NCBI GenBank assembly: GCA_023898345.1
Contig: CP060218.1
Coordinates: forward strand, 413,510-477,509
Length of the DNA stretch: 64,000 nucleotides
Source: Candidatus Woesearchaeota archaeon
GTDB taxonomy: Archaea > Nanobdellota > Nanobdellia > Woesearchaeales > UBA583
Reading direction: 5' to 3'
The notes below the pieces were generated by a model that was not told where the DNA came from, searched no databases, and saw only the letters and a program-made list of their open reading frames with translations. A program made the position numbers and the translations under genes. This document shows positions 6,234 to 47,065 of the stretch, piece after piece (the stretch's first letter is position 1; every line of letters starts with the position of its first letter).

Positions 6234-6234
6234 A

Positions 6235-10538: not shown

Positions 10539-11957
10539 ATGGAAAGTTTTACAAAAATTGTAGCGACTTTGGGACCTGCCTGTGATACGGTAGAGGGAAT
10601 TGAAAAGCTTAGAAAGGCTGGCTTGAATGTTGCAAGGCTTAATTTTTCTCATGGGAGTCATGATTACTTTAGAAAGGTTATTGCAAATATTAGAAAAGTC
10701 GATACTAATATTGCAATTCTTCTTGACACAAAGGGTCCGGAAATTCGAACGGGGGATTATGAAAGCGGTTCTTTGACACTTGACTTACACGAAAAAATTC
10801 TTCTTTCAAATAAGCCAATGAAGGAAAAGCATATTCTTATTCAGTATCCGCATTTGCTTACGGTTAGTGAAGGGACAGAAATTCTTATTGACGACGGACT
10901 TGTTGAGGTTAGGGTTCTTAAAGTAGAGAAAGACCACCTTGTCGCACGTGTTGAAAATTCTGCAGTCCTTGGTTCGCGTAAAACTGTTACTATTCGTAAC
11001 CACCAGACAAAGATTCCTTTTTTGAGTCAGAAAGACAAGGAAGATATTGAATTTGGAATTGAGCAAAATTTAGATTTTATTGCAGCATCTTTTGTTAGGG
11101 AAGTTGAGGACCTTGAGCAGATTGAAGCGATTTTGAAAAAGCACAATTCAAGTATTAAGATTATTTCTAAGATTGAACATCCGCGTGCTATTGAAAATCT
11201 TGACAAGATTATTGAGAAGTCTTTTGGGATTATGGTTGCTCGTGGTGATTTGGGTGTTGAACTTCCTGCTGAAAAAGTTCCTGAGTACCAGAGTTATATT
11301 ATTGAGAAATGTAATTTTTTTGGTAAGCCTGTTATTGTTGCAACTCAAATGCTTGAGAGCATGAAATCTGAGCCGCGTCCGACAAGGGCAGAGGTTGCTG
11401 ATGTTGCTAATGCTGTTCGTGAAGGTGCTGATGCTGTTATGCTTAGTGGAGAGACGGCAAATGGAAAGCATCCGCACAAAGCTGTACAAACTATGAACCG
11501 TATTGCTCATGAGTACCAAGATAAAATTCGAGTTAACTTAAGGGATCTTATGGAGAAAACTGCAAAAAAAAGTGAAACGAGTTCTTTGTATATGACAAAG
11601 GCAGCGTACGAAGCAACTCTTCATCTTCCTATTAAGGCAATCTTTGCTCCGACGGAAAGTGGTTTTACAGCAAGAAATATTTCTCGTTTCAGGCCTCAGT
11701 GTCCTATTTATGCGATAACTTCTGATGAAAAGGTTCACAGACAACTTCAACTTTCTTGGGGTGTCTTTCCTCTTATGAATGATTCTAAAGCAAAAAGCCA
11801 CGATGCTTGTGTAAACAAAACTGTTAAGGCATGCTTTGAAAAGAAGGAGCTTAAGAATGACGATAGTTTGCTTGTTCTCTCTGGACACGTCTCTGGAAAG
11901 AGTGGTATGACAAACATGCTTGAGATTTACAGGACAGAAGATATTTTGAAAAGATAA
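10539..11957 (+). CDS. pyk: Pyruvate kinase
   Basis: The N-terminus TKIVATLGPACDT...NVARLNFSHGSH and the MVARGDLG motif. Confidence 0.9.
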   Translation: MESFTKIVATLGPACDTVEGIEKLRKAGLNVARLNFSHGSHDYFRKVIANIRKVDTNIAILLDTKGPEIRTGDYESGSLTLDLHEKILLSNKPMKEKHILIQYPHLLTVSEGTEILIDDGLVEVRVLKVEKDHLVARVENSAVLGSRKTVTIRNHQTKIPFLSQKDKEDIEFGIEQNLDFIAASFVREVEDLEQIEAILKKHNSSIKIISKIEHPRAIENLDKIIEKSFGIMVARGDLGVELPAEKVPEYQSYIIEKCNFFGKPVIVATQMLESMKSEPRPTRAEVADVANAVREGADAVMLSGETANGKHPHKAVQTMNRIAHEYQDKIRVNLRDLMEKTAKKSETSSLYMTKAAYEATLHLPIKAIFAPTESGFTARNISRFRPQCPIYAITSDEKVHRQLQLSWGVFPLMNDSKAKSHDACVNKTVKACFEKKELKNDDSLLVLSGHVSGKSGMTNMLEIYRTEDILKR

Positions 11958-17988: not shown

Positions 17989-19065
17989 TTAATTTCTTCC
18001 TACACAGTTTAGGTCGACAAAGGCCTGCCTTAATCTTTCTTTCATACTCTCTTCTCCTGCTCTCATAATTGCTCGTGGATCATAGTATTTTTTATTAGGT
18101 TTGTCTTTTCCTTCTGGGTTACCAATTTGTGAACGAAGGTAGGCTTTATTTTTATTCATATATTCTCGTACGCCAGAACTGTAGCCCCACTGTGCATCAG
18201 TATCAATATTAAATTTAACAACACCATAGCCGACAGCCTCACGAATTTTTTCAGCCTCAGATCCGCTTCCGCCATGAAAAACAAAGTTGACTGGTTTCTT
18301 TCCTGTTTTGAATGTCTTTTCAATATATTTCTGACAATTCTCTAGAATTTTTGGTTGAAGCTTAACATTCCCAGGTTTGTACACGCCGTGGACATTTCCA
18401 AACGTAGCCGCTACAGTAAAGCGTTTGCTAATTTTTCCTAATTCCTCAACTGTATATGCTATGTCTTCTGGTTGTGTGTACAATTTTTTGTTCTCGACTG
18501 CGGTATTGTCTACTCCGTCTTCTTCTCCTCCCGTAACGCCAACCTCAAGTTCTAGCGTTATTTTCATCTTATCAAGAACCTTGAGATATTTTTTTGAAAT
18601 CTTAATGTTTTCCTTAAGAGTTTCTTGGGAAAGGTCAATCATATGAGAAGAAAAAAGGGGTCTCTTTGTTTTTTTGAACTGTTCCTTATCTGCTTTTATC
18701 ATGCCATCAAGCCAGGGGAGCAATTTCTTTGCACAGTGGTCTGAGTGCATAATCACAGGGACACCATATATTTTTGCAAGAGAATGAACGTGCTGTGCTG
18801 CACAAACTGCTCCTAGTACGGAGGCTTCTTGTTTCGAATTGTCCAAACCTTTTCCTGCTATGAACGCAGCGCCGCCGTTTGATACCTGAATGATGATGGG
18901 AGACTTGATGTCTCTTGCAATTTCAAGAGCAGCATTTATTGTACTTGTGCTTGTCACGTTAACTGCAGGAATTGCAAACTTTTTTTCTTTAGCATGCAAA
19001 AACAACTTTGTTACATCATCTCCAAACAAAACTCCGGGTTTCACAATATCTAAAACTTTTACCAT
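17989..19065 (-). CDS. fba: Fructose-bisphosphate aldolase, class II (bacterial/fungal long type)
   Basis: VPVIMHSDHC and GNVHGVYKPGNVKL are class II FBA signatures. Confidence 0.85.
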   Translation of the reverse strand: MVKVLDIVKPGVLFGDDVTKLFLHAKEKKFAIPAVNVTSTSTINAALEIARDIKSPIIIQVSNGGAAFIAGKGLDNSKQEASVLGAVCAAQHVHSLAKIYGVPVIMHSDHCAKKLLPWLDGMIKADKEQFKKTKRPLFSSHMIDLSQETLKENIKISKKYLKVLDKMKITLELEVGVTGGEEDGVDNTAVENKKLYTQPEDIAYTVEELGKISKRFTVAATFGNVHGVYKPGNVKLQPKILENCQKYIEKTFKTGKKPVNFVFHGGSGSEAEKIREAVGYGVVKFNIDTDAQWGYSSGVREYMNKNKAYLRSQIGNPEGKDKPNKKYYDPRAIMRAGEESMKERLRQAFVDLNCVGRN

Positions 19066-36606: not shown

Positions 36607-37329
36607 ATGTCTGCTCCTTTTCTCCGACATAGTCTTTTTGGTGGGTTTGTTTTTCTTAGCTCTTGTTTTTCAGTCTCTGCGGCAAGGTCTGAACAAACCT
36701 TTTATGATTCTCCTTCTTATCTGCCTTATTGTATAATTATTGATAAAGCAGATAGGGAGTTATATTTTTTTGAATGTGATGGTATGGAACATTTGCAAAA
36801 CCTTATTTATAAGAGCCCTATTGTCATTGGTGGAAGAAATAAAGATTATCGTACGGGTAAAAAAAGAAACTTTGAAACACCTGTAGGTAACTTTCAAATT
36901 CAAGCCTATGTTAAAGATGCTAAATGGTTTCCACCTAAATGGGCAAAAGAACATAGGGTAAATGAACGAGGAGAAATTATTGGGGTTGGTGGTGTTTTTG
37001 GTCCTATGTGGATGCCTTTGACTTCTTACGGGACTCCTCTTGATCCTTCTTTTTCTTTTAATCCTGAGGGGTATGGTGGGCTTGCACTTCATGGGACTCG
37101 GGATCAGAGACAGTTTTTGAAGAGGTTCTCGCGTCAGTCTCATGGTTGTATTAGACTTCCTGATGGGGCTCTTTCATTTCTTGAATCTTTTTTTAAAAAA
37201 TATCTTGTTTTATCATCTCCCGAACAGATTCCAAAAGGTGAGAAAGTAGTTTTTTCAAGGGGCGCAATACCTGTTTCTATTAGACATTCTTTTTCTTTGG
37301 AGAGGGTTTTGTCTTCAGCAACCCCATGA
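36607..37329 (+). CDS. L,D-transpeptidase (YkuD) domain protein with signal peptide
   Basis: HGT...SHGCIRLP catalytic motif. Confidence 0.65.
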   Translation: MSAPFLRHSLFGGFVFLSSCFSVSAARSEQTFYDSPSYLPYCIIIDKADRELYFFECDGMEHLQNLIYKSPIVIGGRNKDYRTGKKRNFETPVGNFQIQAYVKDAKWFPPKWAKEHRVNERGEIIGVGGVFGPMWMPLTSYGTPLDPSFSFNPEGYGGLALHGTRDQRQFLKRFSRQSHGCIRLPDGALSFLESFFKKYLVLSSPEQIPKGEKVVFSRGAIPVSIRHSFSLERVLSSATP

Positions 37330-40300
37330 GGCTGGGGCTTGTGTGCTAAGGAATGCTCCTGTGAGTGTATTAATGTACCAGTCTTTGCATTCTTCTGTTC
37401 TCTCTCTTCTTGAATCATAGCTTGGTGAGAATTCTCTTGCATCACATTTTCCACTTTCGAGTAGGGCTCCTTGTTTGCAGTATCCTTGGCTTTTGTATAG
37501 GGTATTTGGTTCGGAGTTTCCTTTTCCACTTTCTCCTTTCTGCCAAATAATTGTGTCATCTTCTTTTTCTCCTGTGTACCAACTTTCATCACAAAGTATG
37601 AAGACTGAGTCCCAAGTTTGCTCGTCATTATCGGGAGGAATTTGGTATAGTGGGTTGCTTTCGTCGGGGAGAACGGTCACTCCTGCTTTAGGAATTAGAT
37701 TTTGAGAGTCTAGGCTTCCGGTATTTGCTTTGACAAGTCCTGCTGAATACACGGTCCCGTCTGCGAAGCGTACGTACATACTGCCGTCGGGTGTTCCTTT
37801 TTCTGAAATATAACAAAATTCACAGGTTGATGCTACTTTTTCTACTCCTATGTTGAGGTTTTTATTTATGCTAATGAGGTTGTTATTGAAAAGCATGCTT
37901 TCAATGTGCTTTGTTCTTTGTGTTACGACTGAACTACTGAGGGCTGCTGTATGGATGTCGCCTTGGGGGTATTTTCCGTTACATGTGGATTGGATGCGAA
38001 CTTTGTAAAGGGTGTTTGTACTTGGGTCTTGTGCAAAAATGTTTGTTTTGCTTGGATCAATATTTTCAATTTCGGGATCAAAGATTGCTTCGACTCCGCT
38101 TTCTCGACAAAGGTAGAGTTCTGTGTCAAGTACTGTGTCTGAAGAACTTGCAAGATTTGTTTGAGGATAGAAAAAATTTTGTGGGGGATTTTCTTGAGGA
38201 TTGGTGATTGTCTCTTCTATTTCTTCCATATTACAACAGGAGAGTTTTCCTCCGTAGAGTTCAATTTTCTCTTGTTCTTCTACATTGTTTGCATTGAGTG
38301 GTTGTGGGCCTAGGCATGCAGCGGGGTAAATTGTAACTTCGTAGGGATCAGTTAAGGGGGTGCCTGTTTGTGTGTTGGAAATGCTTACGGTAAATCTTAA
38401 TGGACTGACTAAGTCTAGTGAAGAGGGAATTTCATTTTCTCCGATTCTTCCTGTTTCAGGGTCAAAACTTACTTCTTGGGTGATGCCAAGTCCTAGGTCC
38501 GTCATAAGGGCTTCGTACGTAAATTGTACATTCTCGGCATCGTAGAGGCAACTTGTATCTAGATAAAGTTCAAAAGGGTCTGGAATTTCTTCTGGGGAAT
38601 AGGATTTTGAACTGTCTAGTCCGAGGGTATAACCAAAAACTTCTTCTTTGTCTGTTCCTTCTCTAGAAAAAAGGGTATTTTTCAAGTCTGAACTAATTGG
38701 GAAGGGAGTAATTTTATTTTCATTTGAGTTGATGAAATTGAAACAGTTAATGGCTTCTTGATTTCCTGAATTATCTGCAAGTCCTGCTACAAAGATGAAT
38801 GTCATTCTTCTGAATGTCTCTGTGTCGGAGACTGTCACTTCAAAGCTAAATCTTCTTTCTTCGTATGCAACAAATGTCATTTGTCCATCTTCTGTCAGTG
38901 AGAAATAAGCATCTGGTCCGTCGTAGTGTTGAGCTACAAAAAATACTTTGTCCCATCTGTCGAGAAATTGTGCTTCTTTTGTTACTGCTTTGAGATCGAG
39001 AGTAAGGGTTTGCTCTTCACATCCTTCTTCTCTTTCTTTGCAAACCGGATTTACAAATACAATACTGTTTTCTCCTGTTCTGAATGCTTGTGGTATGAGG
39101 TCTGCATCTATGTATGGAGCATAATTTTCGTATGCAAAATTGAAGACGTAAGGATTTCCTAATATTTTTGATTTGGAGTCTATGAGGGAGTAAACATAAA
39201 GCTTGTAGTCCTCATCGTCAACAAGACGAAGCATTGATATTGAAAGGCCTGTGTCACTTTGTTTGCGAAAATATTCATTTTTTTCAGCAATAACTTTGCT
39301 TAAGTTTCTTGGGTCTGAGTAATCAATTGGTTTATTTTCTTCATACTTGTATGAGAGCATCTCTGAGGCTAATTCTAGAAGTTTTTCGAAGCGAATGTTT
39401 GCGGTTTGTCTTGAGCTGTAATACGCTCTTTTTGTATCATTTGTATTGAAGCTTGCTGGAAAAAGGAGGCGGGCTGTTACTGATTCGTCGTCGAAATCTA
39501 ATTCTACGAACAGGGATGTGTTGAGATTAATTGCAAAAATTTCTCTGTTTAGTATTTCTGTCCTAATGTCAGAAAAAATTCCACTCTCATTTTTTATTTC
39601 GGCAATTATTTTTCCTTGTTCGTCAAGTTTAAAATCTTCATATGTTCCTGTGTAGCTTTTATCATTAATTGTAAACTGGACTAGGTCTCCTTTTTCTCCT
39701 AAAAGGTCTTTGACAAGCAGAGTTTGTGTGTCTGGGATGTCAAAAATTTCTCCGGAAAATTGGTCAAAATCAACTTCAAATCCTTCGTTTTCAAAACTCT
39801 TAACTTTGAGGCAGCGTTTGAATTCTTCGACGACAAATTGTTCCATTTCCTCTTTTATTGAATAGTTATAGATTGGTGGCCACTGTTTGTCAATAAGTGG
39901 GGCGTATACTTCTTTGTTTGACATAAGTAAGGTTCTAGAGAGAAGATTATTTTTGTTGAGCTGCATATTGGTGAGAAGGGTTTCTGAGTAGGCATTGTTT
40001 GGCAGGTGGCCCGGTACATATTTTTCGCTTCTGTTGTAGATGAATCCTCCTCTCATTCCTGCAATAAGGAGGGCTCGTTTTAGTTGGAGATCTAGGCATG
40101 AATCAATGCTGCTTTTTAGTGGGGTTAGTTGTTCATTTCCTTTGTCTATGATTGTATCTAAGGTTTGCTCACGTTCTTGTTTTTCTTCGTCGCTACTCAG
40201 AAAAAAAAGGAAAATGAGAAGAACTATTATACACAGTGCTATGATGATGAAGATGGTGATTTGTGCCTTGCGTTGTGTTGAAATTTCTTGTTTCATAGGG

Positions 40301-40383
40301 AGAGTTTTATTTTTTGGAATTTTTTTTTGAGCTTTGCTTTTTCTTAAGTGCAGGATAAACAAGTAAGAGGAGGAGAAAGACAA
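37315..40383 (-). CDS. Giant secreted/surface protein (1022 aa) with an N-terminal TM anchor
   Basis: Long ORF with an N-terminal hydrophobic segment. No recognisable catalytic motifs. Confidence 0.5.
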   Translation of the reverse strand: MSFSSSYLFILHLRKSKAQKKIPKNKTLPMKQEISTQRKAQITIFIIIALCIIVLLIFLFFLSSDEEKQEREQTLDTIIDKGNEQLTPLKSSIDSCLDLQLKRALLIAGMRGGFIYNRSEKYVPGHLPNNAYSETLLTNMQLNKNNLLSRTLLMSNKEVYAPLIDKQWPPIYNYSIKEEMEQFVVEEFKRCLKVKSFENEGFEVDFDQFSGEIFDIPDTQTLLVKDLLGEKGDLVQFTINDKSYTGTYEDFKLDEQGKIIAEIKNESGIFSDIRTEILNREIFAINLNTSLFVELDFDDESVTARLLFPASFNTNDTKRAYYSSRQTANIRFEKLLELASEMLSYKYEENKPIDYSDPRNLSKVIAEKNEYFRKQSDTGLSISMLRLVDDEDYKLYVYSLIDSKSKILGNPYVFNFAYENYAPYIDADLIPQAFRTGENSIVFVNPVCKEREEGCEEQTLTLDLKAVTKEAQFLDRWDKVFFVAQHYDGPDAYFSLTEDGQMTFVAYEERRFSFEVTVSDTETFRRMTFIFVAGLADNSGNQEAINCFNFINSNENKITPFPISSDLKNTLFSREGTDKEEVFGYTLGLDSSKSYSPEEIPDPFELYLDTSCLYDAENVQFTYEALMTDLGLGITQEVSFDPETGRIGENEIPSSLDLVSPLRFTVSISNTQTGTPLTDPYEVTIYPAACLGPQPLNANNVEEQEKIELYGGKLSCCNMEEIEETITNPQENPPQNFFYPQTNLASSSDTVLDTELYLCRESGVEAIFDPEIENIDPSKTNIFAQDPSTNTLYKVRIQSTCNGKYPQGDIHTAALSSSVVTQRTKHIESMLFNNNLISINKNLNIGVEKVASTCEFCYISEKGTPDGSMYVRFADGTVYSAGLVKANTGSLDSQNLIPKAGVTVLPDESNPLYQIPPDNDEQTWDSVFILCDESWYTGEKEDDTIIWQKGESGKGNSEPNTLYKSQGYCKQGALLESGKCDAREFSPSYDSRRERTEECKDWYINTLTGAFLSTQAPASWGC

Positions 40384-41101
40384 TGAAGATGACGAGGACT
40401 ATTTGAATGAAACTAAAGAGGGGAGTTTTTGTGAATTCAAGGGTAAAGTCTTTTTTATCTTCGAGTGTTGTTTCTTTATTGATAGTATAATTAAATTGGG
40501 TTGGTGTTTCTTCAACGGTCCAAGCAATTAATGGGTCAGAATCTAAAATTTCGTAAGGTAACTCGCTTTGAATTAATAGGTCTTTGTTTTCTTCGGTTAG
40601 GCTTTCAATAACTGATTTTGGGATATATTGACTTATTTGAACATTTTCTCCTGTGTCTGGGAGTGAAATGGTAATGGTTGTGCTGTTTTCTTTGTCTGTA
40701 AATGAAAAGGAAGCATTTGCAGAAGTTTCACTTTTTAGTTCTGTGTGGAAGAGCTGGTAGAGTTGTTCGCCGTTTTCATTTTCAATTTTTGCGACAAAGG
40801 TGTACTGTCCGTCTCCGAGTTTTGGTATTTCACAACTTGTTTTTAGGTATTGGGTTGAACTAAAGTTGAGAGGGACTTCACATTTGCGGACTTGTAGTTG
40901 GCCGTTGTGGTAGAAGCTCATTGTAAAGGTGTTTTGTTCTTGCATTATTTCTGTTTTTTCTATGCCAAAGGAAATGAGGTAACTTAATTTTGAGTCATCT
41001 GCATCAAAGGAGAGAATACTTAGTGGAGTTGCAAGTATGTTAGTGAGGGAGAACATAACAAAAAGGCAGATAGAGATGAGAGGTGTAATTCTTACTTTCA
41101 T
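40307..41101 (-). CDS. Secreted protein with signal peptide and a C-terminal TM anchor plus basic tail
   Basis: The listed ORF start at 41158 lies inside the IS end. The native start is probably MKVRITPL at 41101. The C-terminus is ...VLVIFIVFLLLLLVYPALKKKQSSKKNSKK. Confidence 0.4.
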   Translation of the reverse strand: MKVRITPLISICLFVMFSLTNILATPLSILSFDADDSKLSYLISFGIEKTEIMQEQNTFTMSFYHNGQLQVRKCEVPLNFSSTQYLKTSCEIPKLGDGQYTFVAKIENENGEQLYQLFHTELKSETSANASFSFTDKENSTTITISLPDTGENVQISQYIPKSVIESLTEENKDLLIQSELPYEILDSDPLIAWTVEETPTQFNYTINKETTLEDKKDFTLEFTKTPLFSFIQIVLVIFIVFLLLLLVYPALKKKQSSKKNSKK

Positions 41102-41145
41102 ATGTTTTTCTTCGACAAGGAATTTATAAAGTTTTGTTGGAATTG

Positions 41146-42213
41146 GGCTCTGTCCCATTGAGCATCATTTTCAAATAATTAAAAATCAAAACTTAATTTT
41201 TGAATAAATTAATTGATTTTCCCCTGAAAATTAAGTAGTTTTGGTTAAGGAACATACAATATTTGAAGAATAAAAATTGCATAGCAATATTTTTCTTCAT
41301 ATTATAAATAACAATTTTAAAAGCAACTTCTCTTTTTTTTGTCATGTGATTTTTCGAGACAATTTTAGTTAAAATTGTCCTTTTTAATGCAGAAAATACC
41401 CCTTCCACATTATTTCTTAATGGGTATAAGTCTTGATATTCATTAAATGTTTGTTGAAATTGTTTGCGCACAATATTATTGTGCAAACATTTTTCTCCTT
41501 TATTTACTGGAGGAACAATAAGTATATTGTTCAGTTCTTTCATTTTAGAAAAAAGATAGAAATAATAATATCCTTTATCTCCAATGAGAGTAATATTTTT
41601 CAATTTGAGTCTATTAAACAGGCGTTTTGCCTGTTTTTTGTCATTATATTGTTTCATCGTAAAAGTAAAATCAAAAATTTTCTTTTTACCTTGTAAATCA
41701 CAAATTACATCTAATTTATGATAGGGAGATTTTGGATTTAGACCAAATTCCTGCAATCTTTTTTGATAATATGACGACTTAAATGTTGAACTAATGCCAG
41801 TTCCATCTATCCCGAGAATCTCAGGAGATTCAGTTTTTATTGTTATTTCAAGAATTTGTTTGATAAACGTCAAACTAAATTCTTTTATCCAACGATTTAA
41901 TGAGGATTTATTTATTTTATACTTCAAATATAGCCGTCTTGGCCAGATAGTTTCGTTATTAAAATAACTACAAAACTCTCGAAGTGAGAGTTTTGACTTA
42001 AAATATAAAATCACACAACTCAGTTTTTGATTTTGTGTAAATTGTTTATTTCCTGTCTTATTTGCATATTTAGGTAGATCTAAACTTAAGATTATGTCAT
42101 TTAATTCATCTTTAAATTCTCGAGATTTTTTAGGAACAATCTCATGAAGAACTAATTGCCTTTCCATATTATATAAAATTAAAAAATGTCTTTATTAAAC
42201 TTGGGACAGAGCC
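41146..42213 (-). mobile_element. IS5-family-like insertion sequence (1068 bp) with 12-bp terminal inverted repeats and a 9-bp target-site duplication
   Basis: GGCTCTGTCCCA at 41146-41157, and TGGGACAGAGCC at 42202-42213. TTGGAATTG flanks both ends (41137-41145 and 42214-42222). Confidence 0.75.
41193..42167 (-). CDS. DDE transposase, IS5-family-like; distant homologue of the 25898..26764 transposase
   Basis: GIDGTG...IGDKGYY...VEGVFSALKRTIL. Confidence 0.75.
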   Translation of the reverse strand: MERQLVLHEIVPKKSREFKDELNDIILSLDLPKYANKTGNKQFTQNQKLSCVILYFKSKLSLREFCSYFNNETIWPRRLYLKYKINKSSLNRWIKEFSLTFIKQILEITIKTESPEILGIDGTGISSTFKSSYYQKRLQEFGLNPKSPYHKLDVICDLQGKKKIFDFTFTMKQYNDKKQAKRLFNRLKLKNITLIGDKGYYYFYLFSKMKELNNILIVPPVNKGEKCLHNNIVRKQFQQTFNEYQDLYPLRNNVEGVFSALKRTILTKIVSKNHMTKKREVAFKIVIYNMKKNIAMQFLFFKYCMFLNQNYLIFRGKSINLFKN

Positions 42214-42631: not shown

Positions 42632-44776
42632 TTATTGAATTTTTAGGAGTTCTTCTTTGTTTAGGAGGCCTTGCTGTGAACCTCTGTGTTGGATGAGCTG
42701 AGCACTGTGGAGGGATGCAAAATGAAGGGAGAGGTTAATTCCGAAGCCGTGTGCATAGAAGTAGAAGAATGTTGCTGTAAAACAGTCGCCGGCTCCTGTT
42801 GTGTCGATAACTTCTTTTACTTTCTTTGCTGGACAATAATATTCTTTTTCTTTGTCGTAGGCGTAGGATCCTCTACTTCCATCTGTAATAACAACAATTT
42901 GTGGTCCCATAGCACAGATTGTTTTGAGGCAGTCTGTTATTTTCTGTTTTTTTGAAAGGAGTTTTGCTTCTTCAAAATTGAGAATGAGGATGTTTGTCAA
43001 TGCTATGAGTTCTTTTAATTTTTTTTCTCCTTTTACTAGTCCAGCACTTGGATTGTAGCAAAGAAGGGTCTTTCTTTTGTTTTTGCTTAATTCTTTTGCT
43101 AGTCTGAGCTGAGTTTTGAAACTTTCTCCACCTAGGGAAGAAAAATAGTAATATTTTGCAATGCTGTCGCTTTCTCTAAAGTCTGTCCATTTGAGTTGGC
43201 TGTTTTGTCCGCGATGTGTAAAAATAATGCGATCTTTGTCGAGTGTGTCTATGACGATTGACTTTGCTGCACTTTCGGAACTAAAAATTGAGGGGATTAC
43301 TTCAACATTATTTTCTTTTAGATTTTTTATGGTGGGGTCTTTTGTTTCTTGGGCTAGTTTTCCCAAATATGCGACTTTTTTTGCTCCTAATTTTTTGAGG
43401 GCAATACTAACGTTTACTCCTCCTCCGCCAATACTTTTTTCAAAATCTTTTTCGATTTTTACTTTCTCTCCTAATTGAATTTGGCTATAATATTTGTCGA
43501 GGCCGAGTGTTGTGTCCAGAACGTTTGAGCCGAGGCAGAGGAATTCGGGGTAGTCGCAGTTAAAAGTATCATAACTTTTTTCTAATGCTTTGAGTCCGAC
43601 TAAGTCTTGCTCGGTTAGAAAATGAAAAAGGGATGCTCCTCCTGCACTGACGAAATTTATTGAACTTTTTTCTTTTTCTGAAAATTTTTGTAGTGCTGTT
43701 AAAGTATGACCTCCTACTAGGATTGTAAATGCTTTTGTTGTACAAAGGGCTTTGAGCAAGATTTGTGTTCCACTTTGACTTAGCGGATTTTCTATTTCTC
43801 CTGACGGGCCGTGCATGAAAACTGCTTCTCCTTTTAGGATTATGTCTCTGAAAATATGGGCACTTTTTATTCCGAGGTCAAAGTGTTCTGCTTCCATGAC
43901 TCTTGTTTTTTCCTCTGAGAGTTTTTCAAGGGGGATGTCTAGTCTTGTTTTTTTATTAATAAGTCCTATGTCGATAGGGAGGCTTATTTGTGTTTTGTAC
44001 GTTTGCAGTATTTTGTGAAGGGTTCTTCTTTTGTTTGCGAATTCAGGCCTTGACAAAAGGGAGTCGAGTTTTCCAAAGCGATATCCTTGTGTGTATAGTG
44101 CAAAATATCCTATGACTCCGGTGAGGGCGATGTGCTCAGTAAGTTTTTTTTCTAGTATTTCTTGGACAAAAGAAACTGTTTCTTCGATTTTGTCTCCTCC
44201 TAAAACCATTATTCGAGGTTTTTTTGTGTGGAGAAGCTTGTGAAGATTGGTAACTTCATTTTCCATTACTCTTCCTGCAAGAAGGGGGATGTTTTTTATT
44301 TCCGTGATGCTGCTATTACTAAGGTGGGCTAGTGAAAAGGCATCGAGGATGTAGTAGTCAAAGTGTTTTTCTAAATCAAAGAACAGATTTTCTTTTTTTG
44401 GGGGGTGTTCTTCATGTGGACAGAATCGCAAATTTTCAAGGAGGAGAATTTCTCCTTCTTTAAGTTCTTTTATTGCTTTGAACACTTTTTGTGATGTAAG
44501 TTCTGGGATGAATTTTATGTTCTTTTTGAGTTCTTTTTCCAACATGGGGATGTGATCTTTAAGACTTTGGAAATCTTTGTTCTGGCTGCGTCCTTGATGT
44601 GAGAGGAGAACTTGCTTTGCTCCTAGTGCACTTAATTCTTCTACTGTTTTCAGATGTGCTGCAATTCTCTCGTTCATTACTGGTTTGTAATCAACTATTG
44701 CTGCACTAAAATCGACGCGCACTCCCAGAGTTTTTCCTTTGAGCGAAAAATTGTCTATACTGAAAAAGTCATACAT
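42632..44776 (-). CDS. pgk: Fusion protein: phosphoglycerate kinase (N-terminal ~405 aa) fused in frame to a PfkB/ribokinase-family carbohydrate kinase (C-terminal ~300 aa)
   Basis: PGK: KGKTLGVRVDFSA, VLLSHQGR, GGASLFHFL. PfkB: GGGGVNVSIALKKLG and DTTGAGDCFTATFFY. A single 714-aa frame. Confidence 0.8.
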   Translation of the reverse strand: MYDFFSIDNFSLKGKTLGVRVDFSAAIVDYKPVMNERIAAHLKTVEELSALGAKQVLLSHQGRSQNKDFQSLKDHIPMLEKELKKNIKFIPELTSQKVFKAIKELKEGEILLLENLRFCPHEEHPPKKENLFFDLEKHFDYYILDAFSLAHLSNSSITEIKNIPLLAGRVMENEVTNLHKLLHTKKPRIMVLGGDKIEETVSFVQEILEKKLTEHIALTGVIGYFALYTQGYRFGKLDSLLSRPEFANKRRTLHKILQTYKTQISLPIDIGLINKKTRLDIPLEKLSEEKTRVMEAEHFDLGIKSAHIFRDIILKGEAVFMHGPSGEIENPLSQSGTQILLKALCTTKAFTILVGGHTLTALQKFSEKEKSSINFVSAGGASLFHFLTEQDLVGLKALEKSYDTFNCDYPEFLCLGSNVLDTTLGLDKYYSQIQLGEKVKIEKDFEKSIGGGGVNVSIALKKLGAKKVAYLGKLAQETKDPTIKNLKENNVEVIPSIFSSESAAKSIVIDTLDKDRIIFTHRGQNSQLKWTDFRESDSIAKYYYFSSLGGESFKTQLRLAKELSKNKRKTLLCYNPSAGLVKGEKKLKELIALTNILILNFEEAKLLSKKQKITDCLKTICAMGPQIVVITDGSRGSYAYDKEKEYYCPAKKVKEVIDTTGAGDCFTATFFYFYAHGFGINLSLHFASLHSAQLIQHRGSQQGLLNKEELLKIQ

Positions 44777-44851: not shown

Positions 44852-47065
44852 CTACTTTTCGTATGTGAATTTGGGTTCTTTTGCTTTACTTAATTCTTCG
44901 AGGTTTCCAAGCTTGTTTGAAACCGCTTCTAAGGAGCTGTAACTTGATGGGAGACCTGTATTGACAAAGTAGAATGTTATGTGGTTATTGTTGACAACAT
45001 CTTTGAGACTTACTTCAAAAGATTGCAGTTCTATTCCTCCTCTGAGCCAGGATTCTATTGTTGTCGAAGGAATGGTCTGGCAGTCTGCATCGACAAAAAG
45101 TGAGGCTAGGCCGCTTACTCCTGGGCAAATTTCTTCTGCTGGGATTGTTATATTTTTGTTGTCTATAAGAAAGCCTTTAATGGAATAGTTTCCTGGAAGG
45201 AGTGCTATGGAAAGATTTTTTTGGGTCTCTTTTGTAAATTCTAGGACTCTTGTATTTTCTTCGTCAACTTTATCTTCAACAATCAAAAATGCCTTATCTG
45301 TATCTCGAAGTGAGCTTCCTACTCCATTTTTTGTTTCTTCTGGTTCAAGTAATTTAAATGAGACTGAGAAATTTTTTTCTGATGGCATGTAGGCTTGTCC
45401 TAAGTTTATTTCTTTGTCGAGTGTTGGGTTAAGATTTTCAAAAACGAGTTTTCTGTGTCCATATTTGTAAATTTCAAGTGTCCCTGGGTCGCAATTTATG
45501 GGGAGCCTAAATTCAAGATAACTTAGATTTTCTGCTGTTTTGTTTCCGTTCTTTTTTGTTGTTCCTACAAAGCAAGAGGAAATTCCGGAACAGGAAAAGG
45601 AGATTATTGCATCTTCGACACCTTCTTCTGCTTTGTTAAAGGCTCTTTTTTCTGGGTCTATATAACGCTCGCCAAAGAGAACTGGGTCGGAGATGTTGAT
45701 GCGAACGGGCGCTGAGATGAAATGAAGTGGGTCGCAAAGCAGTGTCGTGTCAACATTTGCTTCATACTCTTCATCTAGTGTTATGTCGTAGTTGTCTTTT
45801 AGTGCTGCATTATGGTCGATATTCAATTCTAAAGGTAGGCGGAAAACAAAGTCATCGTTTGTTTCTTTGCTGTTTTTTATTTCAAAAATAACTGGCGTTG
45901 TAATTTCGTACACTGCATTGTATTCTGTAAAGAATATGGGTATGAGGTTGAGAAATGCTTCGGGGTGTGGCATGAGAATAATATCTCCGAGACTTGGTGC
46001 TAGTGAAAAGAACATGGGGTAAAAAATTTCGTAACTTCCTTTTACTGTATAGTCTTCAAATTTTTGGAATATTTTTTTATCATCTGTTTTTGTTATACTT
46101 GTATTGCTGAGATAATCTTTTGTATAGAGATTTGTGAGACTGCTTGCAAATGGACTATCTTCTAGGCCTTCTGGAACTTTTCTTACTTTGTAGTCTGTAT
46201 TAAGAAATTGGATGAGTCCTATGTTGGCATTGAAAATTTGTTTTACGAGTTCTTCTACTTTTGGAACAGACCATGGTTTGAAATCGTAACCTAGTTCAAA
46301 TTGGTAAAATGGCGGGAGAAGGTCTCTTGAATCGCTGTCTTGGTAGGCGTAGAGAAATTGTACGAAGCGTGTTTCGACAAAGGAGCTAGAGTTTTCTGCA
46401 AGGGTTATGTCGCGTGCAAGGTAGTAAGGAATTTTTAATTTGTTGTCGACAACTGAGTCAAATGAAGAAACACTTTCTTGGGTTTGTGTGTTCTTTACAT
46501 TAATTTCAATAGGTAAGGAAAGCTCGGTGAGGATATTGTCGCCTTCAAATTCTACGTTAACGTCGATTTCTTTTGGTTCATAGCGAATATTATATTCATT
46601 ATCAAAAATGTTAAAGCCTTTGAGGCATTCTTTTTCTAGTGTTGCATCTACATATTGTTTTACTTGTGAACGCAGGGAATACTTGCTATTACTGTCATAC
46701 TCGGGGATGTTGAGGTAGAAGATTTCCTCCGAGTCGTCGTAGTAGTGCCAGTATGGAAGTTCGATTCCTCCGAGATCTTCGTACCCTTCTGCTCTTTGAA
46801 TTAAATATTTTATATCATCTCTTTTTGTAAATAGCATGTCTGGGTGGTAGAGCCATCCTGCGTGAAGCCCGATTTCTTTTATTGCTTGTGTTGTTTGTGT
46901 TTCTAGGCAGTCTTCAACAAAGGTTCTTACTTTGACGGCTGGCCTTTCGTCGTCGAAGAAAAAGAAACTATCAGAAAAGGAAAAATAGAGGATGGCCAGA
47001 AGAACGAGAATTGTGGCAATAAGAACAAAGATTCCTATTTGACTTTTCCTTACTTGTTTGTTCAT
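44852..47065 (-). CDS. Large secreted protein (737 aa) with an N-terminal TM anchor
   Basis: ORF plus N-terminal hydrophobic segment. Confidence 0.5.
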   Translation of the reverse strand: MNKQVRKSQIGIFVLIATILVLLAILYFSFSDSFFFFDDERPAVKVRTFVEDCLETQTTQAIKEIGLHAGWLYHPDMLFTKRDDIKYLIQRAEGYEDLGGIELPYWHYYDDSEEIFYLNIPEYDSNSKYSLRSQVKQYVDATLEKECLKGFNIFDNEYNIRYEPKEIDVNVEFEGDNILTELSLPIEINVKNTQTQESVSSFDSVVDNKLKIPYYLARDITLAENSSSFVETRFVQFLYAYQDSDSRDLLPPFYQFELGYDFKPWSVPKVEELVKQIFNANIGLIQFLNTDYKVRKVPEGLEDSPFASSLTNLYTKDYLSNTSITKTDDKKIFQKFEDYTVKGSYEIFYPMFFSLAPSLGDIILMPHPEAFLNLIPIFFTEYNAVYEITTPVIFEIKNSKETNDDFVFRLPLELNIDHNAALKDNYDITLDEEYEANVDTTLLCDPLHFISAPVRINISDPVLFGERYIDPEKRAFNKAEEGVEDAIISFSCSGISSCFVGTTKKNGNKTAENLSYLEFRLPINCDPGTLEIYKYGHRKLVFENLNPTLDKEINLGQAYMPSEKNFSVSFKLLEPEETKNGVGSSLRDTDKAFLIVEDKVDEENTRVLEFTKETQKNLSIALLPGNYSIKGFLIDNKNITIPAEEICPGVSGLASLFVDADCQTIPSTTIESWLRGGIELQSFEVSLKDVVNNNHITFYFVNTGLPSSYSSLEAVSNKLGNLEELSKAKEPKFTYEK

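What the first reader, a model, noticed from the sequence alone, without database searches (positions are those of the whole stretch)
42632..44776. Single 714-aa ORF fusing phosphoglycerate kinase to a PfkB/ribokinase-family sugar kinase
Residues about 1-405 are an unmistakable PGK (KGKTLGVRVDFSA, LLSHQGR, GGASLFHF). Residues about 410-714 are a complete PfkB-family kinase (GGGGVNVSIALKKLG ... DTTGAGDCF). The fusion is continuous in one frame with no intervening stop. To my knowledge, PGK fusions (for example PGK–TIM) are rare, and a PGK–PfkB fusion would be unusual. The PfkB domain could be the organism's phosphofructokinase, sugar kinase or nucleoside kinase, physically coupling two ATP-linked glycolytic steps.
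Basis: seen in the sequence. Interest (0 to 1): 0.6.

Follow-up and report, generated by a model that had tools for sequence, protein, structure and literature searches.

The report
Phosphoglycerate kinase fused to sugar kinase
A tiny uncultured archaeon (Woesearchaeota) really does encode one protein joining the glycolytic enzyme phosphoglycerate kinase to a ribokinase-family kinase, and gene neighbourhoods in relatives suggest that this hidden second half is the phosphofructokinase these archaea are reported to lack.

Summary
Window 42632-44776 (minus strand) is one uninterrupted 714-aa ORF. It has a full-length PGK domain (residues 1-405), a 6-residue linker and a complete PfkB-family kinase domain (412-714). 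It is not an artefact: the same protein occurs in three independent assemblies, and 11 clusters of this architecture exist among 1.84 billion representative proteins; all named ones come from DPANN archaea. A second, independent PGK-PfkB fusion also exists (P0115). Every named record is annotated only as "phosphoglycerate kinase", so the kinase half is invisible in annotation. The PfkB half keeps all catalytic motifs in every member. The PGK half is less constrained: the window protein has lost two 3-PG-binding residues (N24S, R152L), one lineage is heavily degenerate, and some relatives have lost PGK altogether. In relatives of the same DPANN PfkB clade, the kinase gene overlaps a class IA FBP aldolase gene. 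In a Pacearchaeote it sits in a GAPDH-PGK-PGI-GH-PfkB-FBA-TIM cluster, in the PFK slot. The PfkB half is therefore most likely a PFK-B-type 6-phosphofructokinase (about 55%), a candidate for the "missing pfk" of Woesearchaeota. Substrate specificity and any kinetic coupling are untested. This is a new domain architecture built from known enzymes.

The parts
42632..44776 (-). Whole fusion gene: 714 codons plus a TAA stop at 42632-42634. Identical to NCBI USN44664.1, which is named only 'phosphoglycerate kinase'.
43562..44776 (-). PGK half, residues 1-405, archaeal type. The best solved relative is Pyrococcus horikoshii PGK (2cun, E 3e-55).
44705..44707 (-). Ser24, where PGKs have the conserved Asn (human N25) that binds 3-phosphoglycerate. 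Fixed in all three close relatives.
44321..44329 (-). 'AHL' (residues 150-152), where PGKs have 'AHR'. Leu152 replaces the 3-PG phosphate-binding Arg (human R170). Fixed in all three close relatives.
44189..44200 (-). 'GGDK' (193-196). The catalytic Lys (human K215) is retained.
43544..43561 (-). Six-residue linker NCDYPE (406-411) between the last PGK helix and the first PfkB strand.
42635..43543 (-). PfkB-family kinase half, residues 412-714, with a ribokinase-like fold (AF2 pLDDT 94.6; TM about 0.8 to ribokinases and to MJ0406 nucleoside kinase).
43514..43531 (-). 'GSNVLD' (416-421). Asp421 is the conserved sugar-hydroxyl-binding Asp (E. coli RbsK D16, Pfk-2 D14).
43457..43471 (-). Lid strand 'GEKVK' (436-440). 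Lys438 is invariant in the whole DPANN PfkB clade and aligns at or next to Pfk-2 Lys27. Lys440 is a fusion-clade-specific basic residue in the Pfk-2 Arg29 column.
43412..43429 (-). Motif I 'GGGGVN' (450-455). It contains the GG switch. The ribokinase-specific Lys (RbsK K43) is replaced by Gly, as in E. coli Pfk-2.
43202..43234 (-). Lid/hinge segment 'DRIIFTHRGQN' (515-525). Arg516 is invariant clade-wide and a basic residue is kept at 522 (Lys in the generic clade, Arg in the fusion clade). Nucleoside kinases have Gln at the 516 position.
42968..42979 (-). NxxE motif 'NFEE' (600-603), for Mg2+/phosphate coordination.
42785..42802 (-). 'TTGAGD' (659-664): the anion hole and the catalytic base Asp664.
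17989..19065 (-). Pathway context, not an operon partner: class II fructose-bisphosphate aldolase (NCBIfam equivalog 556 bits, cutoff 297). This enzyme would consume the product of a PFK.
10539..11957 (+). Pathway context: pyruvate kinase (PK barrel 386 bits plus the PK_C domain).

Best explanation
The gene encodes a genuine two-enzyme polypeptide of a Woesearchaeote (DPANN archaeon). The N-terminal 405 residues are an archaeal-type phosphoglycerate kinase. The C-terminal 303 residues are a catalytically complete PfkB (ribokinase-superfamily) kinase. A 6-residue linker joins them. SHOWN: the fusion is real, conserved across diverged lineages, and arose at least twice. The PfkB half is the strictly conserved part. 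The PGK half is under weaker constraint in the window lineage and is degenerate or lost in some relatives. INFERRED: the PfkB half is an ATP-dependent 6-phosphofructokinase of the PFK-B type (F6P + ATP -> FBP + ADP). It would supply fructose-1,6-bisphosphate to the class II aldolase encoded 24 kb away, so it would be the 'missing' pfk of these archaea. The PGK half probably still interconverts 1,3-bisphosphoglycerate and 3-phosphoglycerate, but with weakened 3-PG binding. The fusion most likely arose because PGK and this kinase were co-expressed members of one glycolytic gene cluster. PfkB enzymes dimerise through their lids and a lid lysine acts in trans, so the protein is expected to be a PfkB-centred dimer carrying two PGK arms. 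Nothing indicates obligatory substrate or nucleotide channelling.
For: Reality and conservation of the fusion. One ORF. Pfam finds both domains full length. Three independent assemblies give the same protein at >=97% identity. Seven further full-length fusions at 34-43% identity were found; P0002 was recovered from three sequencing runs and P0007 from 13 contigs. The exhaustive census finds 11 clusters at 50% identity. The apparently split genes in L006 are the same fusion with a +1 frameshift at a T5 run inside the PfkB domain of a 3x-coverage contig.

Two origins. P0115 lies outside the main fusion clade in 200/200 NJ bootstraps for the PfkB half and 149/200 for the PGK half.

PfkB half intact. 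D16, GG, N46, NxxE, T223 and GAGD (RbsK numbering) are invariant in all 17 fusions. The domain model has pLDDT 94.6 and a ribokinase-like fold.

Asymmetric constraint. Compared with MCA9487010.1 there are 18 substitutions in the PGK half and 2 in the PfkB half (Fisher p=0.002). The window's PGK half is 9 identity points more diverged from family members than its PfkB half, whereas intact members differ by about 0. The window deviates at 7 of 44 conserved PGK columns, against a mean of 1.5 and a maximum of 7 in 204 stand-alone PGKs. PfkB-only genes nest inside the fusion clade (200/200) at the same syntenic locus.

PFK assignment. In Pacearchaeota contigs L104-L106, the clade member P0299 (36% identical) lies in a same-strand cluster of overlapping genes: GAPDH, PGK, cupin PGI, GH15-like hydrolase, PfkB, class IA FBP aldolase and TIM, followed by a ROK kinase and an MFS transporter. 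PFK is the only EMP step without a gene, and PfkB is the only unassigned kinase. In L101-L103 the PfkB gene P0298 overlaps by 4 nt a class IA FBP aldolase gene (T. tenax FBPA 223 bits, against 132 bits for the ADH-synthase type). A bona fide PEP synthase lies 0.4-1.5 kb from two other clade members. The window itself encodes class II FBA and pyruvate kinase. None of the 13 neighbourhoods examined contains RuBisCO, AMP phosphorylase, R15P isomerase or nucleoside phosphorylase.

Literature. Woesearchaeota are reported to lack pfk (PMC5994134; PMC8421398). Archaeal 6-PFKs of the PFK-B family are established (PMC12525153). Motif I has Gly in place of the ribokinase Lys, and clade-invariant lid Lys and Arg residues sit at or near Pfk-2 K27 and R105, which contact the sugar phosphates. 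Nucleoside kinases have Ser and Gln at those positions.
Against: No substrate assignment is direct.

All curated equivalog models score far below cutoff. The best-scoring model is bacterial ribokinase (108.7 bits, cutoff 299.65). The hexose-phosphate kinase subfamily that contains Pfk-2 matches only the C-terminal third (71 bits, cutoff 216).

The operon evidence comes from the generic DPANN PfkB clade. The main fusion clade is a distinct sister subfamily, separated in 200/200 bootstraps. It has 10-22 clade-consistent substitutions at 52 conserved columns, so it could have a shifted specificity.

The equivalences to Pfk-2 lid residues move by 1-2 positions between aligners. The generic clade, which is the one found in the EMP operon, lacks the extra basic residues.

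In the window the fusion gene has no metabolic neighbours; it lies between unknown membrane or secreted proteins and an IS element.

The PGK half lacks two 3-PG ligands and equals the most deviant of 204 stand-alone PGKs, so its activity is uncertain.

I could not search the rest of the 1.54-Mb genome for a second PGK, a canonical PFK or pentose-bisphosphate-pathway genes.
Confidence: 0.55

Rival explanations
1. The PfkB half is a pentose or nucleoside salvage kinase: a ribokinase, a broad nucleoside kinase like MJ0406, or a ribose-1-phosphate kinase of the pentose-bisphosphate pathway. Its pathway would end in 3-phosphoglycerate or glyceraldehyde-3-phosphate, which would link it to PGK.
For: The closest solved sequence to the window domain is the M. 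jannaschii nucleoside kinase MJ0406 (2c49, E 3e-15), followed by the B. thailandensis nucleoside kinase and ribokinases. The top fold matches are ribokinases and MJ0406. The best NCBIfam hit is ribokinase. From established knowledge, DPANN archaea depend on nucleoside salvage, many carry form III RuBisCO, and R1P kinases belong to the PfkB family (Jaffe et al., PMC6389311).
Against: All of these models score far below their cutoffs: ribokinase 108.7 against 299.65, nucleoside kinase 68 against 450, and R1P kinases 35 against 500 and 55 against 330. The ribokinase-defining Lys43 is Gly, and the Glu143 position is not conserved. The nucleoside kinases lack the clade-invariant lid Lys and Arg. 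None of the 13 neighbourhoods examined holds RuBisCO, e2b2, deoA or a nucleoside phosphorylase, whereas FBP aldolase, TIM, PGI, GAPDH and PEP synthase recur.
Confidence: 0.25
2. The PfkB half phosphorylates some other substrate, such as fructose, 2-keto-3-deoxygluconate, inositol or an unknown sugar. On this view the fusion clade has diverged in specificity from the operon-embedded clade.
For: The fusion clade is a separate subfamily with consistent substitutions near the active site: L440K/R, K522R, K601Y/F and the invariant K505. The profile search against PDB ranks YdjH, IolC-like, fructokinase and adenosine-kinase-like proteins at similar scores.
Against: The independent fusion P0115 joins PGK to a generic-clade PfkB, the clade that is coupled to FBP aldolase. 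This argues that the PGK partner is the same functional type in both fusions. No neighbourhood suggests these alternative pathways.
Confidence: 0.12
3. In the window lineage the PGK half is no longer a working PGK. It would be a pseudoenzyme retained as a nucleotide or metabolite-binding, regulatory or scaffolding module for the kinase. This is compatible with any substrate for the PfkB half.
For: N24S and R152L remove two 3-PG ligands. Together with G354V, G381A and A382S they make 7 deviations at conserved columns, all fixed in three relatives. The PGK half accumulates substitutions about 7 times faster than the PfkB half. The sister lineage P0007/P0008/P0105 has lost most of the basic patch, and P0105 has also lost the catalytic Lys (17-18 deviations), yet it keeps the domain.
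Against: The catalytic Lys196, R37, H60, R63, R117, E329 and most Gly-rich loops are retained. From memory, not checked here: mutation of the equivalent Arg168 in yeast PGK raises Km but does not abolish catalysis. Seven deviations is within the range of stand-alone PGKs, whose maximum is also 7. The recent substitutions are conservative.
Confidence: 0.2
4. The fusion is an artefact: two adjacent genes merged by a sequencing or assembly error.
For: The genome is a MAG. One related contig (L006) was called as two overlapping genes.
Against: The same 714-aa ORF appears in three independent assemblies. Sixteen other cluster representatives have the same junction. The L006 frameshift lies inside the PfkB domain at a homopolymer, not between the domains. 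Composition is uniform across the two halves.
Confidence: 0.01

Closest known systems
Bifunctional PGK-TIM of Thermotoga maritima (NCBIfam NF010569, PDB 1vpe)
   Same: It is a natural fusion with PGK as the N-terminal module and a second glycolytic enzyme at the C-terminus. The partners come from one glycolytic gene cluster.
   Different: The partner here is a PfkB kinase, not triosephosphate isomerase. Only the PGK part of the NF010569 model matches (positions 5-394 of 645; 184.7 bits against a cutoff of 883). Thermotoga is bacterial, whereas this protein is archaeal-type and from DPANN.
Archaeal PFK-B-type ATP-dependent 6-phosphofructokinase (Aeropyrum pernix; Hansen & Schonheit 2001, cited in PMC12525153)
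   Same: It is a ribokinase-superfamily kinase proposed or shown to carry out the PFK step in an archaeon that lacks PfkA. It belongs to the ribokinase-like core of the family rather than the Pfk-2/FruK branch.
   Different: The A. pernix enzyme is a stand-alone protein and has been characterised biochemically. No reference sequence or model for it was available here, so relatedness was not measured. The window protein is fused to PGK and is uncharacterised.
E. coli Pfk-2 (PfkB; PDB 3cqd, 3n1c)
   Same: It has the PfkB fold, a 'GGGG' motif I in which the ribokinase Lys is replaced by Gly, NxxE and GAGD motifs, and basic lid residues near the positions of K27 and R105 that contact the sugar phosphates.
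   Different: It belongs to a different subfamily: TIGR03168 matches only residues 607-703 at 71 bits against a cutoff of 216, and hhalign identity is 21%. The R29 and R90 equivalents are only approximate.
Methanocaldococcus jannaschii nucleoside kinase MJ0406 (PDB 2c49)
   Same: It is the closest solved sequence to the window's PfkB half (E 3e-15, about 22% identity, TM about 0.8). It is archaeal and ribokinase-like.
   Different: MJ0406 has Ser, Gln and Gln where the DPANN clade has the invariant Lys438, the fusion-clade Lys440 and the invariant Arg516. NF041164 scores 68 bits against a cutoff of 450.
Stand-alone DPANN 'carbohydrate kinase family protein' PfkBs (e.g. P0299 in Pacearchaeota GCA_023139205.1; P0298)
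   Same: They belong to the same superclade at 33-38% identity and share the invariant residues K438, R516, GGGG, NxxE and GAGD. They lie in glycolytic gene clusters and are coupled to a class IA FBP aldolase.
   Different: They are not fused, except in P0115. They form the sister subfamily to the main fusion clade (200/200 bootstraps) and lack the fusion-clade-specific K/R440 and K505.

Membership tests
Phosphoglycerate kinase (Pfam PF00162) | Full-length match to the PGK profile above the gathering threshold | tested here: met
   260.8 bits against a cutoff of 27, covering profile positions 1-377 of 379. Best PDB match is P. horikoshii PGK 2cun, E 3e-55, over residues 5-405.
Phosphoglycerate kinase (Pfam PF00162) | Complete 3-phosphoglycerate-binding set (human D23, N25, R38, H62, R65, R122, R170) | tested here: not met
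   Five of the seven are kept. N25 is Ser24 and R170 is Leu152, both fixed in three close relatives. Most other fusion members keep all seven.
Phosphoglycerate kinase (Pfam PF00162) | Catalytic Lys (human K215) and nucleotide-site residues (E343, Gly-rich loops) | tested here: met
   K196 and E329 are present. The loops are altered but recognisable: VGGH in place of GGGH, and GGAS in place of GGGA.
Phosphoglycerate kinase (Pfam PF00162) | PGK enzymatic activity | not testable with these tools
   Needs a recombinant enzyme assay or pgk complementation.
PfkB / ribokinase superfamily (Pfam PF00294) | Profile match above threshold and a ribokinase-like fold with a lid | tested here: met
   144.5 bits against a cutoff of 25.8. 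AF2 pLDDT is 94.6 and Foldseek TM is 0.80-0.85 to ribokinases, MJ0406 and YdjH.
PfkB / ribokinase superfamily (Pfam PF00294) | Catalytic motifs: sugar-binding Asp, GG switch, NxxE, and GxGD with the catalytic Asp | tested here: met
   D421, G450-G451, N600/E603 and G661-A-G-D664 are present and invariant in all 17 fusion representatives.
Ribokinase sensu stricto (TIGR02152) | Equivalog score, and ribose ligands K43 and E143 (E. coli numbering) | tested here: not met
   108.7 bits against a cutoff of 299.65. K43 is Gly and the E143 column varies across the family (E/D/Q/P/T/K).
Pfk-2 / FruK / LacC hexose-phosphate kinase subfamily (TIGR03168, TIGR03828) | Subfamily model above cutoff over the full length | tested here: not met
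   71 bits against cutoffs of 216 and 292, and only residues 607-703 match. Pfk-2 is not among the 60 matches listed for the profile search of PDB.
Archaeal PFK-B-type 6-phosphofructokinase (A. pernix type) | Close relatedness to a characterised archaeal PFK-B | not tested
   No reference sequence or curated model was available in the tools. The family is known only from the literature (PMC12525153).
Archaeal PFK-B-type 6-phosphofructokinase (A. pernix type) | Genomic association with FBP aldolase or other EMP genes, and no other PFK | tested here: inconclusive
   Met for clade relatives: PfkB-FBPA gene overlap in L101-L103, and an EMP cluster in L104-L106. In the window, class II FBA lies 24 kb away and PK 31 kb away, with no operon. 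The rest of the genome could not be searched.
Archaeal PFK-B-type 6-phosphofructokinase (A. pernix type) | [quoted passage not shown] | not testable with these tools
   Needs an enzyme assay.
Archaeal nucleoside kinase (NF041164; MJ0406 type) | Equivalog score | tested here: not met
   68.2 bits against a cutoff of 450. Lid residues differ from MJ0406 and BthNK.
Ribose-1-phosphate kinase (NF041134 Thermococcales; NF053626 haloarchaeal) | Equivalog score, and a neighbourhood with R15P isomerase, RuBisCO or a nucleoside phosphorylase | tested here: not met
   35.3 bits against 500 and 55.1 bits against 330. No such neighbours appear in 13 contexts.
Bifunctional PGK/TIM (NF010569) | Match over both the PGK and TIM parts | tested here: not met
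   Only model positions 5-394 of 645 match, at 184.7 bits against a cutoff of 883.

The most novel reading that the evidence does not exclude
The fusion is more than a by-product of co-expression; it is a functional device. One version: the PGK module regenerates ATP from 1,3-bisphosphoglycerate right next to the ATP-consuming PFK-B module, linking the priming step of glycolysis to its first pay-off step in cells with very small adenylate pools. Another version: in lineages where the 3-PG site has decayed (the window in part; P0007, P0008 and P0105 fully), the PGK module has become an allosteric sensor of lower-glycolysis metabolites or adenine nucleotides that controls an otherwise non-allosteric PFK-B. 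Either would be a new regulatory design for glycolysis, evolved twice in DPANN archaea.
Probability: 0.1. Interest if true: 0.75.

Novelty: new variant of a known kind. Interest (0 to 1): 0.55.

Why it matters
Metabolic reconstructions of Woesearchaeota and other DPANN archaea repeatedly report a broken glycolysis because pfk is missing (PMC5994134, PMC8421398). That gap is used to argue for dependence on hosts or partner organisms.

This gene and its stand-alone relatives give a concrete, clonable candidate for the missing enzyme. The candidate has been hidden in two ways. The fused protein is named and KO-assigned only as PGK (K00927), and the stand-alone relatives are named only 'carbohydrate kinase family protein'. 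If the PfkB clade is confirmed as a PFK, many DPANN genomes would be re-scored as having a complete EMP pathway.

The family also shows a bifunctional enzyme at several evolutionary stages: intact, partly decayed (the window), heavily decayed, and reduced back to one domain. That makes it useful for studying how fusion proteins and pseudoenzymes evolve.

If the PfkB half turns out to be an ordinary ribokinase or nucleoside kinase, the finding shrinks to a rare but unremarkable domain fusion.

Tried and rejected
None of the 80 loci kept covered both halves. The scan says nothing about the taxonomic spread of the fusion.

2. The exact-sequence contig look-up for the window protein found nothing. 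The rest of the 1.54-Mb genome could therefore not be inspected for a second PGK, a canonical PFK or RuBisCO-pathway genes.

3. L006 first looked like naturally split, adjacent PGK and PfkB genes. Three-frame translation showed a +1 frameshift at a T5 run inside the PfkB domain, so I rejected it as evidence for a split ancestor.

4. The fusions described by Jaffe et al. 2019 are RuBisCO-isomerase fusions and are irrelevant here.

5. I tried to assign the substrate from Pfk-2 active-site equivalences. MAFFT aligns K438 with K27 and R516 with R105. hhalign leaves the K27 region unaligned and places R516 two residues before R105. I kept this only as weak support.

6. Absence of the motif I Lys is not specific to PFKs: MJ0406 also lacks it, and from memory adenosine kinases and fructokinases do too. 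It only excludes a strict ribokinase.

7. The fold search against PDB and the profile search against PDB do not discriminate between substrates.

8. A Foldseek search of AFDB for the same architecture was not possible because the library was unavailable.

9. The metagenome motif scan gave only 5 true family members among 52 loci, and none had glycolytic neighbours.

10. I first thought the PGK half had decayed in three or more lineages. Bootstrapping shows that P0007, P0008 and P0105 form one lineage (197/200). There is therefore one severe decay, the partial one in the window lineage, and mild changes in P0109 and P0110.

11. Literature searches for this fusion, or for PfkB as the PFK of DPANN archaea, found nothing. 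The library covers open-access papers only.


Full report
OBSERVATION. The window contains a single ORF at 42632..44776 on the minus strand. It starts with ATG, ends with TAA, and encodes 714 aa with no internal stop. Pfam finds a full-length phosphoglycerate kinase domain at residues 7-388 (profile positions 1-377 of 379; 260.8 bits; E 2.6e-77). It also finds a PfkB carbohydrate-kinase domain at 433-703 (profile positions 21-298 of 302; 144.5 bits; E 6e-42). In the AlphaFold2 model of the full protein (mean pLDDT 92.7), the last PGK helix covers 393-405 and the first PfkB strand covers 412-415. The linker is therefore six residues, NCDYPE. GC content is the same in the two halves, 0.376 and 0.384.

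IS IT AN ARTEFACT? No. The protein is NCBI USN44664.1, from a Candidatus Woesearchaeota MAG on a 1.54-Mb contig. Its 90%-identity cluster contains two independent assemblies: MCB9370134.1 (714 aa, on an 839-kb contig, 3 substitutions) and MCA9487010.1 (97% identical). A search of 5.8 billion clustered proteins found seven more full-length fusions at 34-43% identity. P0002 was assembled from three separate sequencing runs and P0007 occurs on 13 contigs. An exhaustive HMM search of 1.84 billion representatives clustered at 50% identity returned 11 clusters with the PGK-PfkB architecture, plus fragments. These are P0001, P0103, P0008, P0104-P0110 and P0115. By comparison, 3,679 proteins scored E<=1e-30; those listed are almost all single-domain PGKs. 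All named records come from Woesearchaeota, Nanoarchaeota or unclassified archaea. One contig, L006, was called as two overlapping genes. Three-frame translation shows that the PGK frame reads on into the PfkB N-terminus (FIVVGSNVLDT) and then shifts by +1 at a T5 run inside the PfkB domain. The contig is labelled 3x coverage. This is a sequencing error or a pseudogene of the same fusion, not a split gene pair.

EVOLUTION OF THE FUSION. In neighbour-joining trees of the two halves, 16 of the 17 representatives form one clade. P0115 is excluded from it in 200/200 bootstraps for the PfkB half and in 149/200 for the PGK half. P0115 (MAF36796.1, Tara Oceans) has a PfkB half that groups with the generic DPANN PfkBs. 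It is therefore an independent second fusion, in the same N-to-C order.

PfkB-only genes (P0252, P0253, P0255, P0118) nest inside the main fusion clade with 200/200 support. P0252 and the related gene in L146 occupy the same syntenic slot as the fusions P0002, P0004 and the one in L135. That slot lies downstream of the archaellum operon, and P0002, P0004 and P0252 are also followed by class I LysRS. In the PfkB-only loci an unrelated opposite-strand ORF of about 610 aa sits where the PGK half would be. The PGK half has thus been lost secondarily, or moved elsewhere. A 405-aa PGK-only protein, P0116, falls within the fusion clade in the PGK tree and could not be followed up. Linker length varies: the PfkB 'GSNxxD' motif starts at residues 407-418 in most members, at 430 in two, at 472-476 in P0007 and P0008, and at 716 in P0104.

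STATE OF THE TWO HALVES. The PfkB half is intact everywhere. The sugar-binding Asp, the GG switch, N46, NxxE, T223 and the GAGD catalytic Asp (E. coli ribokinase numbering) are invariant in all 17 representatives. The domain model has pLDDT 94.6 and pTM 0.92 and superimposes on ribokinases, MJ0406 and YdjH at TM 0.80-0.85.

The PGK half is heterogeneous. Most members keep the whole catalytic and substrate-binding set. At 44 columns that are at least 90% conserved in 204 stand-alone PGKs, those PGKs deviate at a mean of 1.5 positions (95th percentile 4, maximum 7). Ten fusion representatives deviate at 0-2 positions. P0115 deviates at 3, P0109 at 4 and P0110 at 5. The window protein deviates at 7: N24S, R152L, F333S, G354V, G381A, A382S and P393V. 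P0007, P0008 and P0105 deviate at 17-18 and have lost most of the 3-PG basic patch; P0105 has also lost the catalytic Lys. Those three form one lineage (197/200).

N24 and R152 correspond to human N25 and R170, both ligands of 3-phosphoglycerate. The window keeps R37, H60, R63, R117, the catalytic K196 and E329. The unusual residues are fixed in all three close relatives.

Constraint is asymmetric on both short and long timescales. Against MCA9487010.1 there are 18 substitutions in residues 1-405 and 2 in residues 412-714 (Fisher p=0.002). Against MCB9370134.1 the counts are 3 and 0. The window's PGK half is on average 34.3% identical to other family members, while its PfkB half is 43.4% identical, a difference of +9.1. 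P0105 (+10.2) and P0007 and P0008 (+14.0, +15.3) show a similar or larger gap, and the other members range from -3.7 to +3.2. I conclude that the PfkB half is the indispensable part. In the window lineage the PGK half evolves under relaxed or altered constraint. It is probably still a PGK with weakened 3-PG binding. From memory, not checked here, mutation of the equivalent Arg168 in yeast PGK raises Km without abolishing catalysis. That the half is inactive cannot be excluded.

WHAT DOES THE PfkB HALF PHOSPHORYLATE? Curated models do not decide. The best NCBIfam hit is bacterial ribokinase at 108.7 bits (cutoff 299.65). Nucleoside kinase scores 68 (cutoff 450), the R1P kinases score 35 and 55 (cutoffs 500 and 330), and the Pfk-2/FruK subfamily scores 71 (cutoff 216) over the C-terminal third only. 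The closest solved sequence is the M. jannaschii nucleoside kinase MJ0406. A family profile ranks YdjH, ribokinases, adenosine-kinase-like proteins, IolC and MJ0406 together. It is not a strict ribokinase, because K43 is Gly and the E143 position is variable.

Gene context in relatives is far more informative. The PfkB half belongs to a large clade of DPANN 'carbohydrate kinase family proteins' at 33-38% identity, from Woesearchaeota, Pacearchaeota and Nanoarchaeota. Four observations bear on function.

(i) In Pacearchaeota contigs L104-L106 (GCA_023139205.1 and two independent assemblies), clade member P0299 lies in a same-strand cluster of overlapping or abutting genes: type I GAPDH (426 bits, cutoff 367), PGK, cupin-type glucose-6-phosphate isomerase, a GH15-like glucoamylase, PfkB, an archaeal class IA FBP aldolase (T. 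tenax FBPA 239 bits, against 111 bits for the ADH-synthase MJ0400) and TIM (224 bits, cutoff 132). After one opposite-strand gene come a ROK sugar kinase and an MFS transporter. Every EMP step from sugar uptake to 3-PG is represented except PFK, and the only unassigned kinase sits between PGI and the aldolase. PGK and PfkB are co-operonic there, which gives a simple route to fusion.

(ii) In L101-L103 (three samples) the PfkB gene P0298 overlaps by 4 nt a class IA FBP aldolase gene (T. tenax FBPA 223 bits, MJ0400 132 bits, no deoxyribose-phosphate aldolase hit).

(iii) In two other lineages a bona fide PEP synthase (1223 bits, cutoff 598) lies 0.4-1.5 kb downstream.

(iv) The window itself encodes a class II FBP aldolase (556 bits, cutoff 297) and pyruvate kinase, 24 and 31 kb away. 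A GAPDH gene lies 10 kb from fusion P0007.

None of the 13 neighbourhoods examined contains RuBisCO, R15P isomerase, AMP phosphorylase or a nucleoside phosphorylase. The literature reports that Woesearchaeota genomes lack pfk (PMC5994134; PMC8421398). Archaeal 6-PFKs of the PFK-B family are established (PMC12525153).

There is weak structural support too. In E. coli Pfk-2, the motif I Lys of ribokinases is replaced by Gly. Lys27 from the partner subunit's lid takes over its role, and Arg105, Arg29 and Arg90 bind the sugar phosphates (PMC6429617). I verified my reference Pfk-2 sequence as 309/309 identical to 3cqd. The DPANN clade has 'GGGG' in motif I and invariant lid residues Lys438 and Arg516. 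The fusion clade additionally has K/R440 and K505. In a MAFFT alignment these fall in or next to the K27, R105, R29 and R90 columns. hhalign shifts R516 by two positions and leaves the K27 region unaligned. Nucleoside kinases have Ser and Gln at the Lys438 and Arg516 positions.

CAVEATS. The operon evidence concerns the generic clade. The main fusion clade is its sister subfamily, with 10-22 clade-consistent substitutions at 52 conserved columns, so its specificity might have shifted. However, the independent fusion P0115 joins PGK to a generic-clade PfkB, which suggests the same functional pairing in both fusions. I put the probability that the window's PfkB half is a 6-phosphofructokinase at about 0.55, a pentose or nucleoside salvage kinase at about 0.25, and another sugar kinase at about 0.12.

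HOW IT PROBABLY WORKS. Shown: there is one polypeptide, both folds are predicted with high confidence, and the kinase active site is intact. Inferred: the PfkB module dimerises through its lid, as in the rest of the family, so the protein would form a dimer with two PGK arms. The PfkB module would make FBP for the aldolase. The PGK module would catalyse the 1,3-BPG/3-PG step with reduced 3-PG affinity. The variable linker (6 to about 300 residues), the pTM of 0.66 for the full-length model and the existence of PfkB-only descendants all argue against a fixed inter-domain geometry or obligatory channelling. The fusion is best explained as co-expression made permanent. A kinetic or regulatory role for the PGK module remains possible but has no direct support.

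ANNOTATION CONSEQUENCE. All five named database records of the fusion are called 'phosphoglycerate kinase', and the Tara record carries only COG0126/K00927. KO-based pathway reconstructions would count this gene as PGK and miss the second catalytic domain. The stand-alone relatives are 'carbohydrate kinase family protein' or 'ribokinase'. This may contribute to the reported absence of pfk.

NOVELTY AND VERDICT. Both domains belong to well-known families, and fused glycolytic enzymes are known, for example Thermotoga PGK-TIM. I found no description of the PGK-PfkB architecture in the searchable literature, and databases do not name it. I classify it as a new variant of a known kind. Interest is moderate to fairly high (0.55). 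A PFK-B-type enzyme in an archaeon is not surprising in itself. The finding still gives a directly testable candidate for a recognised gap in DPANN metabolism, and it shows the fusion at intact, partly decayed, heavily decayed and PfkB-only stages.

Noticed in passing
window 8609-8983 (+) and 9690-10487 (+), with 9008-9622 (-) between them: The diphthamide synthase (Dph2, PF01866) match is split over two ORFs (two matched stretches; the 124-aa ORF looks like the N-terminal part). The two parts are separated by about 700 bp carrying a 204-aa multi-pass membrane ORF on the opposite strand. This could be a split gene, an insertion or a pseudogene.
   Followed up: no
window 36607-37329 (+): A YkuD-type L,D-transpeptidase catalytic domain (54.6 bits) is encoded in an archaeon. 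This is normally a bacterial peptidoglycan-crosslinking enzyme. It could reflect horizontal transfer or a role in interaction with a bacterial host or partner.
   Followed up: no
window 288-7572 (+): A defence-island-like stretch. It holds a type I restriction-modification system (HsdR C-terminal part at the window edge, HsdM, HsdS) interleaved with an AlbA_2/Schlafen + HATPase_c_4 protein (1313-2680), a DUF3800 protein (4092-4724) and a KAP-family P-loop NTPase (4977-6233).
   Followed up: no
window 17989-19065 (-): The aldolase here is a bacterial-type class II FBP aldolase (FbaA-like equivalog, 556 bits). The Pacearchaeota and other DPANN relatives examined use the archaeal class IA aldolase. 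This suggests non-orthologous replacement, probably by lateral transfer.
   Followed up: partly
window 41193-42167 (-) and 25898-26764 (-): Two DDE_Tnp_1 transposase genes. One lies only about 460 bp downstream of the fusion gene, separated from it by a 93-aa ORF. This may explain why the archaellum-LysRS synteny seen in relatives is absent here.
   Followed up: no
window 37315-40383 (-), 40307-41158 (-), 44852-47065 (-), 47920-49506 (+): Large proteins (1022, 283, 737 and 528 aa) flank the fusion gene. None has a Pfam match, and at least three have an N-terminal hydrophobic segment. They are probably secreted or surface proteins typical of DPANN.
   Followed up: no
P0104 / MFW5704297.1 (1014 aa), residues about 390-712: One fusion-family member carries an insert of about 300 residues, with no Pfam match, between the PGK and PfkB halves. 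The PfkB-only protein P0118 is its sister (200/200 bootstraps).
   Followed up: no
P0119, P0122, P0181 (PGK-PGK); P0126 (733 aa); P0204 (847 aa): The census turned up other unusual PGK architectures: tandem PGK-PGK proteins, PGK fused to a 4Fe-4S dicluster domain (Fer4_22), and PGK with a sub-threshold TCAD9 match (34.5 bits against a cutoff of 40).
   Followed up: no
L101 9128-10810 (+); L092 7422-9839 (+); L098 8451-10847 (+): PEP synthase genes (full-length in L092 and L098) or a 560-aa protein with only the PPDK_N domain (L101) recur within 0.4-2.2 kb of DPANN PfkB genes in three otherwise different neighbourhoods.
   Followed up: partly
L004 5950-7806 (-) and L146 2661-4487 (+): In the PfkB-only loci, an asparagine- and lysine-rich ORF of about 610 aa with no Pfam match lies on the opposite strand between the FlaJ-like gene and the PfkB gene. 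The PGK half occupies this place in the fused relatives.
   Followed up: no
window 1-64000: GC skew is positive in all but two of the 2-kb windows, so cumulative skew rises almost monotonically from 0.25 to 5.17 across the 64 kb. The region therefore lies within one replichore with no origin or terminus. GC content is 28-40%.
   Followed up: no
window 31943-32527 (-) and 13146-13841 (+): A guanylate kinase (PF00625, 144.6 bits) and an amino-acid-kinase-family protein (PF00696, 79 bits; possibly a UMP kinase, not checked further) are encoded in the window. If the second is a UMP kinase, both would fit a nucleotide-salvage lifestyle.
   Followed up: no
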